This document shows, piece by piece, positions 3 to 41,550 of a DNA stretch of 64,000 nucleotides. The DNA is taken from assembly GCA_041648395.1 (NCBI GenBank), contig JBAZPC010000003.1:12801-76800 (forward strand). Direction: 5' to 3'. The stretch comes from Minisyncoccota bacterium (GTDB lineage: Bacteria; Patescibacteriota; Minisyncoccia; UBA9983). A program made the translations under genes and the position numbers. The stretch's first letter is position 1; each line of letters starts with the position of its first letter. The notes beneath the pieces were generated by a model. The model did no database searches. It worked only from the letters and a program-made list of their open reading frames with translations, and had not been told where the DNA came from.

Positions 3-653
3 TTGAAAGAATTTGAGGAGGTTAGAAAAAGAGACGAATTTTTTGAGAAAGAGCTGGCTGACCTCAAGCAGGCCGTCGGCTCGCTTAAAAATCTTTTGCT
101 TGAACTTGAAGAAAAAATTGACCGGGATTTTAAAGTCGGCATAGAAAAAATAAACAAAGAATTCCAGAAATTTTTTGACGAGATGTTCGGCGGGGGAAAG
201 GCAGAATTGAGAAGAGTTGCGCCAGTAAAGAGGGTAAAAAAAGAAGACCCCGAAGACCCGACGTCCGACGTCGGGGAAGTTGAGAATGAGGAAAAAGAAG
301 AGGGCATAGAAGTTTATGTGAATCTGCCGAAAAAGAGAATTCATTCTTTGGATGCGCTTTCCGGCGGGGAGAGGGCGCTCACTTCCATCGCGTTGCTTTT
401 TGCCATGTCCCAGGTCAATCCGCCGCCGTTTTTGGTTTTAGACGAAACAGACGCGGCTCTTGACGAAGCGAATTCGCAGAAGTACGGCAAGATGCTGAAT
501 AATTTGAGCAAACAAACCCAGCTTATTGTCATCACTCACAATCGCGAAACAATGAAGCAGGCGGGGATTTTGTACGGTGTGACAATGGGCTCGGACAGCG
601 TTTCTAAAATCCTCTCCATAAAATTCACCGAAGCGGAAAAAATTGTAAACTAG
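3..653 (+). CDS. smc: chromosome segregation protein SMC, C-terminal fragment (5' end outside window)
   Basis: ABC signature LSGGERALTSIALLFA, Walker B LVLDETDAALD, D-loop/H-loop ITHNRETM. Ends with TAG stop. Confidence 0.8.
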   Translation: MKEFEEVRKRDEFFEKELADLKQAVGSLKNLLLELEEKIDRDFKVGIEKINKEFQKFFDEMFGGGKAELRRVAPVKRVKKEDPEDPTSDVGEVENEEKEEGIEVYVNLPKKRIHSLDALSGGERALTSIALLFAMSQVNPPPFLVLDETDAALDEANSQKYGKMLNNLSKQTQLIVITHNRETMKQAGILYGVTMGSDSVSKILSIKFTEAEKIVN

Positions 654-694
654 GGGTTGCTGATTATTATTTTTTAAGCTATATTTGTGTCTAT

Positions 695-985
695 ATGAAG
701 CAAGAGAAAATACGCGAACAAATTTATAAACAACTTCCTTTAATAAAGAGCAAATATAATGTAAAAAAGATTGGGGTTTTTGGCTCGTTTGTCCGAGGTG
801 AGCAAAAGAAAGGGAGCGATGTTGATATTTTGGTGGAATTTAAAAGTCCTATCGGATTTTTTGAATTTATTCGGTTGGAAAATTTCTTAAGCCACACCTT
901 ACACAAGAAAGTGGACTTGGTTTCTAAAAAATCTATCAAGCCGGCGGTTAAAAAAGAAATTATGAGAGAAGTGCAATATGTCTAA
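695..985 (+). CDS. nucleotidyltransferase-domain antitoxin (MNT of MNT/HepT pair)
   Basis: GVFGSFVRGE...GSDVDILVEF minimal nucleotidyltransferase motif. Overlaps the next ORF by 8 nt. Confidence 0.7.
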   Translation: MKQEKIREQIYKQLPLIKSKYNVKKIGVFGSFVRGEQKKGSDVDILVEFKSPIGFFEFIRLENFLSHTLHKKVDLVSKKSIKPAVKKEIMREVQYV

Positions 986-1322
986 AAGAGGAATTAAACT
1001 TTATCTCGGAGATATAAAAGATTCTATTAGAAAAATAGAAAAGTATACGCGCGGTGTTAATTTTGCTGATTTTTCAGGCGATGAAGAATTGATTGACGCG
1101 GTGGCTAGGAACATTTCTATAATAGGCGAAGCCGTCATAAATATACCCGGTGAAATAAAAACAAAAAATCCTGATGTGGCGTGGAAAGAAATAAAGGGCA
1201 TGAGGAACAAAGTCATTCATGAATATTTTGGTGTTGATGAGGAAATTTTGTGGAAAACTATTCAGGAAGATATCCCAGTGTTCAAAAAGCAAATCAACAA
1301 GCTTTTGAAGGGGATAAAATAA
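978..1322 (+). CDS. HepT-like (DUF86) RNase toxin
   Basis: Rx4HxY motif (RNKVIHEY), ~114 aa, translationally coupled to the MNT ORF. Confidence 0.7.
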   Translation: MSKRGIKLYLGDIKDSIRKIEKYTRGVNFADFSGDEELIDAVARNISIIGEAVINIPGEIKTKNPDVAWKEIKGMRNKVIHEYFGVDEEILWKTIQEDIPVFKKQINKLLKGIK

Positions 1323-1446
1323 TCATAAAATTCACCGAAGCGGGAAAGATTGTGAGTTAAGACGCTTTTGTTGATTAAAAATAAAATATAGGTTATCTTT
1401 AGATTAGAAGCTTTTAGAAACTTTTTTAAAAAAGGAGGGGATAAAA

Positions 1447-1632
1447 ATGGGTAAACAAAAAGAGATTATCGTAAAATTTGATAATCTTGTGCAGGATCAT
1501 CCTGTTATTACGGGCAAAAAAATTCCCGTATATGCTTCAGTACTTCCCAATCAGTTAGACTCGCTTAGGATGGCGGGGAAACGTGGCAGAGAAGCTGCCG
1601 GAATATTCAAAAAAAGGCTTAGTTCTTTTTAA
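1447..1632 (+). CDS. hypothetical small protein
   Basis: Strong RBS AAAGGAGGGG 7 nt upstream, followed by a terminator hairpin. Confidence 0.4.
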   Translation: MGKQKEIIVKFDNLVQDHPVITGKKIPVYASVLPNQLDSLRMAGKRGREAAGIFKKRLSSF

Positions 1633-1650: not shown

Positions 1651-1686
1651 AAAGAGGCGTAATAACCAAAAGCCTCTTTTTTATTT
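1651..1686 (+). terminator. rho-independent terminator
   Basis: AAGAGGC...GCCTCTT stem followed by a T-run. Confidence 0.5.
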
Positions 1687-1723
1687 GACTTAAAAATGCG
1701 GTTTTGCTAATATTGATTTTGTT

Positions 1724-2059
1724 ATGTTAATGATACGGCTACAGCGGACTGGAAAAAAGCATGACCCGAGTTTTCGGGTTGTTTTGATTGATTCAAGGCG
1801 CGCGGCGAGCAGCGGTTCGGTCTTGGAGATTTTGGGCGACTACAGCGCCACGAGAAAAAAATATAATCTTAACACGGAAAGAATAAAAAGTTTGATGTCC
1901 AAAGGCGCGAAAGTTTCCGACACGGTTCATAATTATTTAGTGAAAGAAAAAATAATAGGAGGCGAAAAACGCGACGTTCTTCATCACACGAAAATAAAAG
2001 CGAAGTTGGCAAAAAAAGCGCCGAAAGAAGCGGCGACACCAGCTCCAGCAACAGCTTGA
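1724..2059 (+). CDS. rpsP: 30S ribosomal protein S16
   Basis: MIRLQRTGKKHDPSFRVVLIDSR... S16 signature, with a Lys/Ala-rich C-terminal extension. Confidence 0.85.
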   Translation: MLMIRLQRTGKKHDPSFRVVLIDSRRAASSGSVLEILGDYSATRKKYNLNTERIKSLMSKGAKVSDTVHNYLVKEKIIGGEKRDVLHHTKIKAKLAKKAPKEAATPAPATA

Positions 2060-18151: not shown

Positions 18152-18271
18152 AATTACTATTCTAGCATATCAACTTAGTTTTTATTAAAATCTTTTTTAT
18201 ATCTTCCGCCAGTTAGCCAAATCACGCATATGCGGAAAATGACTAACTGAATTAGGTAAACTTGCAAAATT

Positions 18272-18733
18272 TTGGCGGAGGTGGTAGAAATTAGGGTAGA
18301 AAAAGGTATTTTAAAAAACAAAAAGGAGGATAAGATAATGTTCGGTTTAAGTGACGAAATCAGAGAACTTGAGGCAAATGCATGTCGCAAGGAACGTGTT
18401 TCTTGCGCTGATTGCGGTTATAGTTTTTGGTCTTGTTATGCTATAGGAAATTTTTGTCCTAATTGTAAATCTACCAATTTTAAATCTGTTCCATGGTGGT
18501 ATGGGAGAGATATACCGTCTTCAATCCATGGTAAAAAATTAGCAGATGGCAGAAAAGTCGTGCCAAAGTTTTTTGTGGAAGTTAGGGCAAATATCCACCC
18601 CGTAAATGGAGGCGACCCATTCCTTTCATGGTTGGAAGCAGAAAAATGGTTTAAGGACCATGGATGGGAAATAATGGGCGATGCTGAGTGGTACGCCCAT
18701 AAATATTACAGGAATAGTTTTTTTGAGAAATAA
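18272..18733 (+). CDS. hypothetical zinc-ribbon protein (153 aa)
   Basis: CADCGYSF...CPNCKS. Strong RBS AAAGGAGG. Lies in a duplicated promoter/terminator cassette. Confidence 0.45.
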   Translation: MAEVVEIRVEKGILKNKKEDKIMFGLSDEIRELEANACRKERVSCADCGYSFWSCYAIGNFCPNCKSTNFKSVPWWYGRDIPSSIHGKKLADGRKVVPKFFVEVRANIHPVNGGDPFLSWLEAEKWFKDHGWEIMGDAEWYAHKYYRNSFFEK

Positions 18734-18782: not shown

Positions 18783-18906
18783 GCTCAAAATGTTGCAAAA
18801 ATCTGCTATCGCCTAAAATAGTAACACTTTATAAAATTTAAAATTGGGCAAACTTGCAAAAATTTTGCGGAGGTGGTAGGAATTAAGACAGAAAAATTTA
18901 CATGTA

Positions 18907-18980
18907 GCTAGGGAAGCTCAAGTGGCAAGAGCGCCAGACTCTAAATCTGGAGGTTGGCGGTTCAAATCCGCCCCCTGGCA
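18907..18980 (+). tRNA. type-I tRNA with anticodon CUA (reads UAG; putative amber suppressor, amino-acid identity unknown)
   Basis: Acceptor GCTAGGG/CCCTGGC (U3-G70), disc A73. D arm GCTC-AAGTGGCAA-GAGC. Anticodon arm CCAGA-CTCTAAA-TCTGG. Variable loop AGGTT. T arm GGCGG-TTCAAAT-CCGCC. Confidence 0.7.
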
Positions 18981-39933: not shown

Positions 39934-41550
39934 ATGGCAAGCAAAAAATTTGCAAGCAAAAAAATATTTTTGAATGTTGCCGCTATAATTTTTTCTTTGG
40001 GAATCATCAGTGTCGCCAATGCGGTGAACCCTTTTGATATTTCCTATCCCGTGGCGGAACTGGGAAATTGTGGTTCACAGGAAGAGTGTAAGTCGTTTTG
40101 TGACAATCCCGACAATCAGGTCGCGTGCGTTGAATGGGCGCAAGGCAAGGGCTTTGTGACGGAGGGAGAAGTTAAGCGGGTCAAGGACATGAGGAGATTT
40201 GATGATGGAGCAGCGCCGATAGAGGACTTCGGCCCTAATGGGTGCAAAACCCCGCAGGAATGTGACGCGTTCTGTAAGGTTTTAGAAAACTTAAACGAGT
40301 GTTTGAGTTATAGTGTTTCTCATGGGTATATGCCTCAAGAAGAGGCGGACAAGATATTGGCAAAAGTAAACAAAGGAGGCCCCGGCGGATGCAAGGGTCC
40401 GCAGGAATGCGATACATTTTGCCGCAATCCGGAAAATATTGAGACATGTATGAACTTTGCCGTTGAGGATGGGAAAATCAGCAAAGAAGAAGCGGACTTT
40501 ATAATAACCCAGACGAAAGAATTCGGCGCCGGACATGGAAGAAAAGGGGGGGCAGGAAAATCAGGCCAACAACGCGGACCGGCGGAACCGAAAATTGACG
40601 AGCAAAAAGCGCTAAAGGTCTTAGAAGAAAAAGGCGGAGGACCGGGCGGGTGCAAATCAATGGAGGAATGCGGAAATTATTGCGGCACTCCGGAACACGG
40701 AGAAGAGTGCATGAACTTTGCCGTTGAGAACGGATTCATGCCTCCGGAGGAAATGGAAAAAGCAAAAAAAATGATGACGATGGCAGGTCCCGGCGGATGC
40801 AAAGGTCCGCAGGAATGCGACGCATATTGCAGCCAGGAAGGCCATGGCGAAGAGTGTATGAATTTTTCTCTGCAAAACGGATTAGTATCGCCTGAAGAAG
40901 GGGAGAAAATGAAGAGAGAAATGGAAATTGTCAAAAAGCTTCAAGGGGGAGGAATGTCCGGCCCGGGCGGGTGCAAGGGTCCGCAGGAATGCCAGGCTTA
41001 TTGTTCGGACCAATCTCACATGGAGGAGTGCATGAGTTTTGCCACTCAAAACGGAATGATGAACAGAGGCGATGCTAATATGAGAATGCAACAAGTGCAA
41101 GACGCGCAATCAATGATACAAATGGGAGAACAAAGCAGACAAAGATTCATGATGCCTCCTCAAGGGGGCCTGCCCGATGGCAAGGCGGGCGAAATGGGTC
41201 CGCCTCCCGAAGGATTTCGGGGATTTATGTCGCCACCGCCTGGCAGTATGCAACCACCGCCACAAGGAGGAATGCTGCCTCCGGAAGGATACCAAATGCC
41301 GCCTCAGGGAATAATGCCACCAACGACAGGAGGAGGTTTTGTTCCGCCTGGGGGATTTATACCGCCGCCATATGGCAGTATGCAGCCGCCACCGGGAATG
41401 ATGCAGCCAGCGAATATGATGCCACCGGAAGGAATGATACAGCCACCGCCGACAAATATGATACCTCCTCCGCCATCAGAACTGATGCCGTCTACTAATT
41501 TACCTGGGCTTATTCTTAAGCCGTTTCTGGATATTTTTAGGGCTTGGTAG
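39934..41550 (+). CDS. secreted/anchored cysteine-rich repeat protein with Pro/Gln/Met-rich low-complexity tail
   Basis: Signal/TM at the N-terminus. About 7 repeats of ~45 aa: GPGGCKGPQECD(A/T)(F/Y)C...E(E/T)CMNFA..NG. C-terminal PPxG/MxPP tract. Confidence 0.55.
   Translation: MASKKFASKKIFLNVAAIIFSLGIISVANAVNPFDISYPVAELGNCGSQEECKSFCDNPDNQVACVEWAQGKGFVTEGEVKRVKDMRRFDDGAAPIEDFGPNGCKTPQECDAFCKVLENLNECLSYSVSHGYMPQEEADKILAKVNKGGPGGCKGPQECDTFCRNPENIETCMNFAVEDGKISKEEADFIITQTKEFGAGHGRKGGAGKSGQQRGPAEPKIDEQKALKVLEEKGGGPGGCKSMEECGNYCGTPEHGEECMNFAVENGFMPPEEMEKAKKMMTMAGPGGCKGPQECDAYCSQEGHGEECMNFSLQNGLVSPEEGEKMKREMEIVKKLQGGGMSGPGGCKGPQECQAYCSDQSHMEECMSFATQNGMMNRGDANMRMQQVQDAQSMIQMGEQSRQRFMMPPQGGLPDGKAGEMGPPPEGFRGFMSPPPGSMQPPPQGGMLPPEGYQMPPQGIMPPTTGGGFVPPGGFIPPPYGSMQPPPGMMQPANMMPPEGMIQPPPTNMIPPPPSELMPSTNLPGLILKPFLDIFRAW

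What the first reader, a model, noticed from the sequence alone, without database searches (positions are those of the whole stretch)
617..1360. MNT/HepT toxin-antitoxin pair inserted at the 3' end of smc with a 37-nt direct repeat regenerating the smc terminus
The last 37 nt of smc (617-653, ...IKFTEAEKIVN*) recur at 1324-1360 immediately after the HepT stop. The first 20 of 20 nt are identical and 13 of the last 17 match, and the copy still reads IKFTEAGKIVS* in frame. The 700 bp in between holds only the overlapping MNT (695-985) and HepT (978-1322) genes. This is the signature of a two-gene cassette that inserted at the smc 3' end, with target duplication or recombination through a short homology carried by the cassette.
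Basis: seen in the sequence. Interest (0 to 1): 0.55.

Follow-up and report, generated by a model that had tools for sequence, protein, structure and literature searches.

The report
Leftover smc end beside inserted toxin–antitoxin
A two-gene toxin–antitoxin module sits just after the smc chromosome-maintenance gene of a Paceibacterota bacterium, followed by a 37-base dead copy of the smc gene end; this copy is most likely a scar of the recombination that assembled the locus, which makes it a tidy but fairly ordinary trace of horizontal gene transfer.

Summary
The repeat is real. It brackets a 667-bp MNT/HepT module (657-1323). The arrangement recurs in a second contig and, diverged, in a sister lineage. 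Four close relatives have smc followed directly by rpsP (40-46 nt). Others carry different small genes there, so the gap is an accessory-gene hot spot.

The downstream copy is not a decayed target-site duplication. Its type ("...GTGAGTTAA") is the working smc end of a TA-free relative. The upstream type ("...AAYTAG GGG TTG") is the working end in two others. The same cassette family in other phyla carries no smc-like sequence, and its joint to the relic is not at a fixed cassette end. There is no integrase and no terminal inverted repeats.

Four other MNT/HepT loci (gap, NUDIX, ferredoxin, tatD) show the same gene-end relics. Differences between the copies are mostly synonymous (36 of 49 at third codon positions).

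Best reading: a gene-end displacement scar from homology-assisted illegitimate recombination, with an ORF61 module also involved. Interest is modest.

The parts
3..653 (+). 3' part of smc (the window starts inside the gene; the full gene is 730 aa in L001)
   Evidence: PF02463 SMC_N, E=2e-27. Full gene and rnc-smc synteny in L001. Homologues are listed.
617..653 (+). Tail a: the functional smc terminus (IKFTEAEKIVN*, stop TAG), the upstream repeat copy. It is N-type and is followed by GGG TTG.
   Evidence: The same type ('AAT TAG GGG TTG') ends smc in the TA-free relatives L153 and L003.
657..694 (+). Left end of the TA module with its own promoter: TTGCTG (657-662), 17-nt spacer, TATATT (680-685), and ATG 9 nt further on (probably a leaderless or near-leaderless mRNA; this is an inference).
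   Evidence: Homology to cassettes in other phyla starts at 657. The hexamers are read from the sequence.
695..985 (+). mntA-like antitoxin (minimal nucleotidyltransferase, 96 aa), with a GSx10DxD motif at residues 30-44.
   Evidence: PF01909 E=1e-17. NCBIfam MntA_antitoxin scores 51 bits, below the cut-off of 60. PDB 1WOT E=6e-10. Motif.
978..1322 (+). hepT-like RNase toxin (114 aa), with an RX4HXY motif at residues 76-83. It overlaps mntA by 8 nt.
   Evidence: PF01934 E=3e-31. NCBIfam HepT_toxin scores 47 bits, below the cut-off of 60. Motif.
1324..1360 (+). Tail b: a displaced, non-coding relic of an alternative (S-type) smc terminus (IKFTEAGKIVS*, stop TAA).
   Evidence: 31/37 identity to 617-653. 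An orthologous relic with the same start point is in L130. The 'GTG AGT TAA' ending is the working smc end of L152. No Rfam match and no unusual fold (z=-1.25).
1361..1446 (+). Spacer with a putative ORF61 promoter (TTGATT 1371-1376, 17-nt spacer, TATCTT 1394-1399) and a strong ribosome-binding site (AAGGAGGGG, 1432-1440).
   Evidence: Conserved between the window and L130. The hexamers are read from the sequence and were not found by the consensus scan.
1447..1632 (+). ORF61, a small conserved hypothetical gene (FDNLVQxHPxIxGKxIPV family). It is a second accessory unit of the same gap.
   Evidence: 77% homologue in L130 in the same position. A roughly 55% homologue lies between smc and rpsP in L153 (by eye from the translations). 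Distant relatives are found elsewhere. GC3 is 33%.
1651..1686 (+). Intrinsic-terminator-like hairpin plus T-run closing the inserted block.
   Evidence: Fold -15 kcal/mol, z=-2.1.
1685..1713 (+). rpsP promoter (TTGACT, 17 nt, TAATAT). This is the right edge of the sequence shared with empty-site relatives.
   Evidence: It is identical to the smc-rpsP spacer of L004 and L153.
1724..2059 (+). rpsP (ribosomal protein S16), the conserved right flank.
   Evidence: PF00886. Synteny in all relatives.

Best explanation
The gap between smc and rpsP in this Paceibacterota clade is a hot spot where small accessory genes are swapped in, using the two conserved flanking genes as recombination arms. In the ancestor of this genome and of L130, two such units were stitched together. 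One is a self-contained MNT/HepT (type VII) toxin-antitoxin module with its own promoter. The other is an ORF61 unit.

The exchange that joined them was one-sided. One end recombined by homology in a conserved flank. The other end was an illegitimate joint that fell 37 nt inside an smc gene of a related lineage. This is homology-facilitated illegitimate recombination (HFIR), also describable as '3'-end displacement'.

The result is that smc keeps one complete terminus (tail a, N-type). A 37-nt piece of another lineage's smc terminus (tail b, S-type) is stranded between the hepT stop and ORF61 as a non-coding relic.

Shown: the anatomy, the empty sites, the alternative occupants of the gap, the two allelic tail types, and the variable joint. 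Inferred: the direction of the event (TA plus tail a coming in from the left, or tail b plus ORF61 coming in from the right), the uptake route (natural transformation), and later gene conversion as the cause of the perfect 20-nt block.

The TA pair itself presumably works as described for HepT/MntA: an RNase toxin held inactive by AMPylation from the nucleotidyltransferase antitoxin. The relic has no function.
For: (1) Empty sites in L003, L004, L005 and L152, with smc followed by rpsP after 40-46 nt.

(2) The gap has at least five states in relatives whose S16 protein falls in the same 90%-identity cluster: empty; TA+relic+ORF61 (window); HepT+relic+ORF61+DUF2283 (L130); orfA+ORF61 homologue (L153); and a 53-aa gene plus DUF2283 (L154).

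(3) Tail b's ending GTGAGTTAA equals the functional smc end of L152. Tail a's AAYTAG+GGG+TTG equals the functional end plus spacer of L153 and L003. The two copies are therefore allelic types, not a fresh duplicate.

(4) The relic starts at the same smc codon in the window and in L130. The cassette side of the joint differs: about 1 nt versus 16 nt of the cassette's conserved 3' UTR is retained.

(5) The cassette family elsewhere has unrelated flanks and no smc-like sequence.

(6) The same scar occurs at other MNT/HepT loci: the gap tail (L100, 83 nt), a NUDIX gene tail (L117, 72 nt), a ferredoxin tail (L120, with an in-frame 39-nt indel), and the tatD head (L086, 145 nt, where the joint shows AAATTG microhomology).

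(7) Such flanking repeats scoring 20 or more occur at 7/41 cassettes, against 0/224 random placements and 2/137 other gene units (Fisher P=6e-4).

(8) Pooled over the five loci, only 13 of 49 differences between copies are at codon positions 1 or 2. About 54% would be expected for in-situ duplication plus neutral decay of one copy (P=9e-5). Both copies therefore evolved mainly as working genes, that is, in different genomes.

(9) HFIR, and duplications of 109-950 bp of the homologous locus after one-sided-homology transfer, are experimentally documented (PMC3240628). Analogous 3'-end and immunity-gene displacement at T6SS/Rhs loci is ascribed to HFIR (PMC5361080). Patescibacteria (Saccharibacteria) are naturally competent (PMC10633639).

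(10) TA and ORF61 are compositionally foreign, with GC3 of 33-38% against 44-61%.
Against: The window's own repeat is too short to carry the codon-position test (2 of 6 differences at positions 1-2). That argument rests mainly on L086, L100 and L120.

Both window copies share GAA at codon 5 of the 12-codon tail, where L130's relic and three relatives have GAG. This requires gene conversion or a parallel change.

No recombination breakpoint is visible inside smc when it is compared with L003 and L004, and no donor genome was found.

The left side of L130 (its smc end and MNT) lies off the contig, so the shared ancestry of the whole arrangement is inferred from the right half only.

HFIR as usually described gives insertion plus deletion. 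A duplication-like product needs the illegitimate joint to fall inside the homologous gene.

Most cassettes (34 of 41, plus 3 further families) show no relic.
Confidence: 0.55

Rival explanations
1. Campbell-type single crossover. A circular or re-circularised DNA carrying the TA module plus a short smc-tail segment integrated by RecA recombination within that 37-40 nt homology. This leaves hybrid copies on both sides, and the perfect 20-nt block marks the crossover.
For: The geometry fits exactly: copies abut both module ends. There is a 20/20 identical block followed by divergence (P=0.005). In E. coli, most products of one-sided-homology transfer were such duplications, formed by single crossover of re-circularised molecules (PMC3240628). 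The xenologous tail types are also expected under this model.
Against: 37 nt is at or below the usual minimum for efficient RecA crossover, and the documented duplications were 109-950 bp. It requires a donor in which the TA already sat next to an smc tail. It does not explain why ORF61 is also absent from the empty sites. Gene conversion explains the identical block equally well.
Confidence: 0.17
2. In-situ target-site duplication. The module inserted by a cut-and-fill mechanism with staggered breaks about 37-40 nt apart. The two initially identical copies then diverged, the downstream one decaying.
For: The direct repeats abut the insert directly. Both copies are equally far (2-3 changes) from the clade consensus. 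Tail a's changes are synonymous, as expected for the functional copy.
Against: There is no transposase, no terminal inverted repeats at 657/1323, and no fixed cassette end. The repeat lengths elsewhere range from 37 to 145 nt. The relic would have had to converge on L152's S-type ending, and tail a on the L153/L003 N-type ending plus GGG. The pooled codon-position bias contradicts duplication followed by neutral decay (P=9e-5). In L120 the relic differs by an in-frame 13-codon indel.
Confidence: 0.08
3. Site-specific integration. A mini-element mobilised in trans by a tyrosine or serine recombinase targets the smc 3' end and carries a replacement gene end (attP mimic), as prophages e14 and 21 do in icd. 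The 20-nt block would be the att core.
For: There is an identical 20-nt core with diverged arms. The gene end is restored. Several different small units occupy the same gap.
Against: No integrase lies within about 4 kb upstream or 6 kb downstream. The cassette in other genomes has no smc-like att. The joint on the cassette side is variable. Other occupants of the gap (L153, L154) have no relic and sit at different points: after the stop in L153, and after the rpsP promoter in L154. Both 'arms' occur naturally in TA-free genomes.
Confidence: 0.07
4. The downstream copy is functional now, for example as a translated tail, a regulatory RNA element or a HepT-related target site, and is conserved for that reason.
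For: The reading frame and stop are retained in the window and in L130. Four of the five differences between these two relics are synonymous (P about 0.05, my calculation).
Against: The relic's frame relative to hepT differs between the window (+2) and L130 (+1). No start codon or ribosome-binding site serves it. The only ORF covering it is a 36-aa GTG ORF inside hepT. There is no Rfam hit and no significant structure. Frame retention is expected for a 37-nt piece recently cut from a working gene.
Confidence: 0.03

Closest known systems
HepT/MntA (HEPN/MNT) type VII toxin-antitoxin modules (Shewanella oneidensis SO_3165/3166; PMC7641770, PMC4621449)
   Same: Antitoxin-first, overlapping two-gene operon. 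MNT domain with GSx10DxD. HepT-like domain with RX4HXY, the RNase motif with the Tyr that MntA adenylylates according to the cited work. Small size. Wide horizontal spread.
   Different: Scores are below the NCBIfam equivalog cut-offs (51 and 47 bits against 60). There is no direct PDB sequence hit for the toxin. Activity is untested. The finding concerns the insertion scar, not the TA biochemistry.
Homology-facilitated illegitimate recombination (de Vries & Wackernagel 2002; Prudhomme et al. 2002; as summarised in PMC3240628)
   Same: Foreign DNA is captured next to a conserved anchor gene. One joint is homologous and one illegitimate. There is a short microhomology at the illegitimate joint in L086 (AAATTG). 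The joint positions are variable.
   Different: The classical outcome is insertion plus deletion. Here the illegitimate joint lies inside the anchor gene's homologue, so a short xenologous duplicate remains. The process is inferred from sequence and was not observed.
C-terminal (3'-end) displacement at Rhs/CDI/T6SS effector-immunity loci (Jackson et al. 2009; Kirchberger et al. 2017, PMC5361080)
   Same: An incoming module with a new gene end pushes the old 3' end downstream, where it remains as an orphan fragment. Arrays build up at one hot spot. The process is ascribed to HFIR.
   Different: There the displaced tips are functional toxin domains with immunity genes, and the variation is adaptive. 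Here the displaced piece is 37 nt of a housekeeping gene with no function, and the payload is a TA pair.
Prophage e14 / phage 21 integration into the 3' end of icd in E. coli (recalled from memory: Hill et al. 1989; Campbell et al. 1992; not checked with the tools)
   Same: The target gene's 3' end is replaced by an element-borne near-copy. The original end is left as a diverged pseudo-copy on the far side of the insert.
   Different: That case needs an integrase and a fixed att core, and the element is more than 10 kb. Here there is no integrase, no fixed cassette end, and both tail types are ordinary alleles of the host gene.

Membership tests
HepT/MntA type VII toxin-antitoxin | Toxin with a HepT-like (DUF86/HEPN) domain | tested here: met
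   PF01934, E=2.7e-31, 108 bits against a cut-off of 23.5.
HepT/MntA type VII toxin-antitoxin | RX4HXY catalytic/AMPylation motif in the toxin | tested here: met
   RNKVIHEY at residues 76-83.
HepT/MntA type VII toxin-antitoxin | Antitoxin is a minimal nucleotidyltransferase with a G[GS]x9-13Dx[DE] motif | tested here: met
   PF01909 E=1.3e-17. GSFVRGEQKKGSDVD at residues 30-44. PDB 1WOT E=6e-10.
HepT/MntA type VII toxin-antitoxin | Adjacent co-oriented genes, antitoxin first, forming one operon | tested here: met
   695-985 and 978-1322 overlap by 8 nt (ATGTCTAA). The same order is seen in 40 other loci.
HepT/MntA type VII toxin-antitoxin | Passes the NCBIfam equivalog models MntA_antitoxin and HepT_toxin | tested here: not met
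   51.2 and 46.9 bits against a cut-off of 60. It is a member at the Pfam-family level only.
HepT/MntA type VII toxin-antitoxin | Toxicity of HepT and its neutralisation by AMPylation | not testable with these tools
   Needs expression and mass spectrometry.
Transposable element with target-site duplication | Transposase, terminal inverted repeats, and a duplication of fixed length that is identical when formed | tested here: not met
   There is no such gene. No inverted repeat pairs the ends at 657 and 1323. The repeats are 37-145 nt long and xenologous.
Integrase-mediated integrative element (att sites) | Identical core sequence in both flanking repeats | tested here: met
   A 20/20 identical block. 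It is also explicable by gene conversion or by coding conservation.
Integrase-mediated integrative element (att sites) | Integrase in or next to the element, and an att-like sequence carried by the element wherever it occurs, joined at a fixed end | tested here: not met
   No integrase in the window's first 8 kb or in L001. Other cassettes lack smc-like sequence, and the joint varies from +1 to +65 nt after the stop.
Integron gene cassette | An attC recombination site (imperfect palindrome) at the cassette 3' end, and intI nearby | tested here: not met
   No significant fold at 1300-1450 (z=-1.25). No conserved palindrome after the stop in the cassette family. No intI.
HFIR / gene-end displacement scar | Empty site in close relatives, and conserved genes on both sides usable as anchors | tested here: met
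   L003, L004, L005 and L152 are empty. The smc and rpsP flanks are 78-91% identical.
HFIR / gene-end displacement scar | The stranded fragment derives from a different allele or lineage than the working gene end | tested here: met
   S-type relic against N-type working end, each found as a working end in relatives. Pooled synonymous bias at five loci.
HFIR / gene-end displacement scar | Microhomology of 3-10 nt at the illegitimate joint | tested here: inconclusive
   L086 shows AAATTG shared by tatD and the cassette's -35 region. In the window an ATAAAAT occurs on both sides of the joint, but the joint itself (TAAT|CATAAAA) is not resolved, and a 14-16 nt indel separates the window from L130.
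HFIR / gene-end displacement scar | Identified donor, and a recombination breakpoint in the anchor gene | tested here: inconclusive
   A sliding-window comparison of smc with L003 and L004 shows no breakpoint. No donor was found. The look-up quotas were exhausted.

The most novel reading that the evidence does not exclude
Gene-end relics next to MNT/HepT cassettes (5 of about 44 independent loci, in Patescibacteria, Chloroflexota and Balneolia) may mark a general and so far undescribed route by which small toxin-antitoxin and other accessory cassettes spread. In this route the cassette travels with a fragment of a conserved housekeeping gene that acts as a portable homology arm, and it lands at gene ends by homology-guided capture with no element-encoded recombinase. 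The resulting xenologous relics would be a scannable class of scars that identify donor lineage and direction of transfer.
Probability: 0.15. Interest if true: 0.55.

Novelty: new member of a known kind. Interest (0 to 1): 0.3.

Why it matters
The locus gives a clean, datable example of how a recombinase-free toxin-antitoxin cassette became fixed next to an essential gene in a reduced CPR genome. The stranded 37-nt smc fragment records that the event joined DNA of two related lineages.

The same kind of scar at gap, tatD, NUDIX and ferredoxin genes in other phyla suggests that homology-assisted illegitimate recombination is a recurrent way for such cassettes to enter genomes. It also suggests that short 'pseudo gene ends' beside accessory genes can be used as markers of that process.

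It does not reveal a new molecular machine.

Tried and rejected
(1) A sliding-window nucleotide comparison of the full smc gene with L003 and L004, run to find an imported 3' segment, showed no breakpoint.

(2) Searches for a function in the relic found no Rfam family, no unusual RNA fold, and no conserved frame relation to hepT.

(3) A PDB sequence search with HepT gave no hit at E<=1e-3.

(4) Three further cassette families (L131-L140 next to infA, L141-L144, L145-L149) were tested for flanking repeats, and none was found.

(5) L091 and L103 scored as repeat-flanked, but they turned out to be three-copy intergenic/regulatory repeats in cassette arrays rather than gene-end relics, so I excluded them from the codon test.

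(6) ORF61 was followed up as a possible clue to the donor. It is a small orphan family found in several contexts and does not identify a donor.

(7) I tried to read the original HFIR papers (PMC122324, PMC122325). They are not held, so I used the summary in PMC3240628.

(8) The left half of the L130 locus could not be recovered.

(9) One literature query failed on syntax.
Full report
**Observation.** The sequence is as described. Window 617-653 is the end of smc (…IKFTEAEKIVN, stop TAG). It recurs at 1324-1360, two bases after the hepT stop, with 31 of 37 identities. All six differences are transitions. The 20-mer is unique to these two sites in the 64-kb window even at three mismatches, against 0.01 expected. 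The clustering of all differences in the last 17 positions has P=0.005. Between the copies lie only an MNT nucleotidyltransferase gene (695-985) and a HepT-like gene (978-1322), which overlap by 8 nt. A second contig from ENA is identical over 6.3 kb. A diverged sister lineage from another sample (L130) has the same order of hepT end, smc-tail copy and ORF61, so this is not an assembly artefact.

**Organism and neighbourhood.** The full gene (730 aa, L001) is annotated as coming from a Candidatus Paceibacterota MAG. It lies in the order nusB/NUDIX – rnc – smc – … – rpsP – KH – trmD.

**The TA module.**
- MNT has PF01909 and a GSx10DxD motif. HepT has PF01934 and an RX4HXY motif.
- Both fall below the NCBIfam equivalog cut-offs for MntA and HepT. 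They are therefore family members at Pfam level and plausibly work like the Shewanella HepT/MntA pair, an RNase blocked by adenylylation (PMC7641770). This is untested.
- The module is AT-rich: 33% GC, and GC3 of 34-38% against 44-61% in the neighbours.
- Its nearest relatives (74-84% protein identity, 76-79% nt) sit in Kuenenbacteria, Uhrbacteria, Brennerbacteria and other lineages, with unrelated flanks.
- DNA homology to those cassettes runs from window 657 to 1322. It starts at a conserved promoter, TTGCYG-17-TATATT, which ends 9 nt before the ATG. In other genomes it continues about 20 nt past the stop into a conserved 3' UTR.
- The mobile unit is thus 657-1323. It is abutted on the left by tail a plus GGG, and on the right directly by tail b.

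**Empty sites and a hot spot.**
- Four close relatives have smc followed by rpsP after 40-46 nt: L003, L004, L005 and L152. The rpsP promoter TTGACT-17-TAATAT starts right after the stop.
- Against these, the window has about 1028 extra bases (660-1687). The extra material is the TA module, the relic, an 86-nt spacer, a small gene (ORF61, 1447-1632) and a terminator.
- Other relatives whose S16 protein falls in the same 90%-identity cluster carry other things in the same gap. L153 has an unknown 94-aa gene plus an ORF61 homologue. L154 has a 53-aa gene plus DUF2283 between the rpsP promoter and rpsP. L130 has hepT–relic–ORF61 and also DUF2283.
- The gap is an accessory-gene hot spot with at least five states.

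**Which copy is which.** An alignment of all tails shows two natural types of smc end in the clade.
- Tail a (…GTA AAC TAG GGG TTG) is of the type that ends smc in the TA-free L153 and L003 (…GTG AAT TAG GGG TTG).
- The relic tail b (…GTG AGT TAA) is shared by L130's relic and is the working smc end of the TA-free L152.
- The relic begins at the same smc codon in the window and in L130. The two therefore descend from one event, which predates their split (91% nt identity in rpsP–KH, against 78-86% for the others).
- On the cassette side, L130 keeps 16 nt of the cassette's 3' UTR and the window keeps about 1 nt.
- The two copies are thus allelic (xenologous) versions of the smc end brought side by side. 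They are not a fresh duplicate of one sequence.
- The perfect 20-nt block, including a GAA codon that both window copies share but L130's relic lacks, is best explained by later gene conversion between the repeats or by the crossover itself (inference).

**The same scar elsewhere.**
- I compared the 220 nt upstream of mntA with the 220 nt downstream of hepT in 41 loci. Seven scored far above shuffles, with scores of 20-93 against a shuffle maximum of 9-13. The comparison was 0 of 224 random placements and 2 of 137 other gene units (Fisher P=6e-4).
- Two of the seven (L091, L103) are multi-copy intergenic repeats.
- The other five are gene-end relics:
  - smc tail (window, 37 nt);
  - gap tail (L100, 83 nt, relic 6 nt after the hepT stop);
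  - a NUDIX gene tail plus 34 nt of spacer (L117, Chloroflexota, 72 nt);
  - a ferredoxin gene tail (L120, Balneolia, with an in-frame 39-nt indel);
  - the first 117 coding bases of tatD plus its ribosome-binding site (L086, Uhrbacteria, 145 nt). Here the relic is the upstream copy, and it ends in AAATTG, shared with the cassette's -35 region.
- In each relic the reading frame is retained, and in the four 3'-tail relics the stop codon as well.
- Pooled, 36 of 49 differences between the working copy and the relic are at third codon positions. Only 13 are at positions 1-2, whereas about 54% would be expected if one copy had decayed neutrally after an in-situ duplication (P=9e-5).
- Both copies therefore spent most of their divergence as working genes, that is, in different genomes.
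- Relics lie 1 to 65 nt from the hepT stop, so there is no fixed cassette end.
- Three further cassette families had no relic.

**Mechanism.** These facts fit homology-assisted illegitimate recombination. Incoming DNA from a related lineage is anchored by homology in a conserved flank. Its other end is joined illegitimately, and when that joint falls a few dozen bases inside the homologous gene, a short foreign gene end is left stranded.
- HFIR with 3-10 bp microhomology is documented in naturally competent bacteria. In E. coli, one-sided-homology transfer mostly gave duplications of 109-950 bp of the homologous locus through single crossover of re-circularised molecules (PMC3240628).
- The same logic has been proposed for displaced 3' ends and orphan immunity genes at T6SS/Rhs loci (PMC5361080).
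- Saccharibacteria, which are also Patescibacteria, are naturally competent (PMC10633639).
- I cannot tell whether TA plus tail a entered a genome that had S-type smc followed by ORF61, or whether tail b plus ORF61 entered a genome that had N-type smc followed by TA. No donor was found, and no breakpoint inside smc was seen.

**Rivals.**
- A transposon-like target duplication is disfavoured. There is no transposase and no terminal inverted repeat. The repeat lengths range from 37 to 145 nt. The tail types and the codon bias also argue against it.
- An integrase/att mechanism is disfavoured. No integrase lies within about 4 kb upstream or 6 kb downstream. The cassette carries no smc-like att elsewhere, and the joints are variable. 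Other occupants of the gap lack relics and sit at other points. Both 'arms' are ordinary alleles.
- A present function for the relic is unlikely.

**Verdict.** It is wrong about target duplication and about the homology being a property of the cassette, and it is incomplete about the size of the insert. This is a new example of a known kind of event: a horizontally acquired type VII TA module with a gene-end displacement scar at a hot spot. The cross-phylum recurrence of such relics is the only part that might merit a systematic survey.

Noticed in passing
window 18250-18304 and 18842-18896: A 55-nt direct repeat (85% identical) brackets a single orphan Cys-rich ORF (18338-18733, 131 aa, no Pfam hit) and its terminator. 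The repeat looks like the promoter region of the tRNA gene that follows. This is the same 'small gene inserted with a duplicated target segment' pattern as at smc.
   Followed up: partly
window 18907-18980: A tRNA with anticodon CTA, which ARAGORN labels tRNA-Pyl; it is amber-suppressor-like. Yet TAG terminates 9 of 54 long ORFs in the window, including smc itself. If it is active, smc would be extended by only 8 residues.
   Followed up: partly
L130 453-665; L154 2125-2495: A DUF2283 gene sits between the rpsP promoter and the rpsP start codon in two relatives, so it shares the ribosomal-protein promoter. In L154 it is preceded by an overlapping 53-aa gene, possibly a DUF4258-like toxin partner.
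   Followed up: partly
window 1371-1383 and 1685-1697: The ORF61 unit is itself bracketed by a 12-13 nt repeat of the promoter -35 region (TTGATTAAAAAT / TTGACTTAAAAAT). This may be an older scar of the same kind.
   Followed up: no
L001 1793-3985 and homologues P0001-P0120: The 'smc' of this whole clade is only 713-780 aa, against about 1,180 aa for canonical bacterial SMC. The precomputed Pfam lists show SMC_N and AAA domains but no hinge domain. The rnc-smc synteny is kept.
   Followed up: no
L086 1773-1873 and 2403-2503; L086 2766-3445: A HAD-hydrolase gene is flanked by a 101-nt, 97% identical, GC-rich structured direct repeat. HicB/HicA-like genes lie just upstream of the tatD relic, so several accessory cassettes are stacked in front of tatD.
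   Followed up: partly
L103 3612-3682, 4411-4482, 5043-5067; L091 3551-3589, 4372-4402, 5294-5333: Three-copy hairpin-plus-promoter-like repeats separate successive small cassettes (MNT/HepT, then a DUF433-like pair in L103). This gives an integron-like array appearance without an identified integrase in the stretch held.
   Followed up: no
HepT homologues P0122-P0240: Most of the closest HepT relatives (73-84% identity) lie on contigs of about 1-3 kb. This is consistent with the cassette being multi-copy or strain-variable and breaking metagenome assemblies.
   Followed up: no
window 40230-41471: Tandem, diverged coding repeats (49-nt units with Cys-rich 'GPGGCKGPQECD' periodicity, followed by Pro/Met-rich 21-nt periodic repeats) lie inside a 538-aa ORF (39934-41550).
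   Followed up: no
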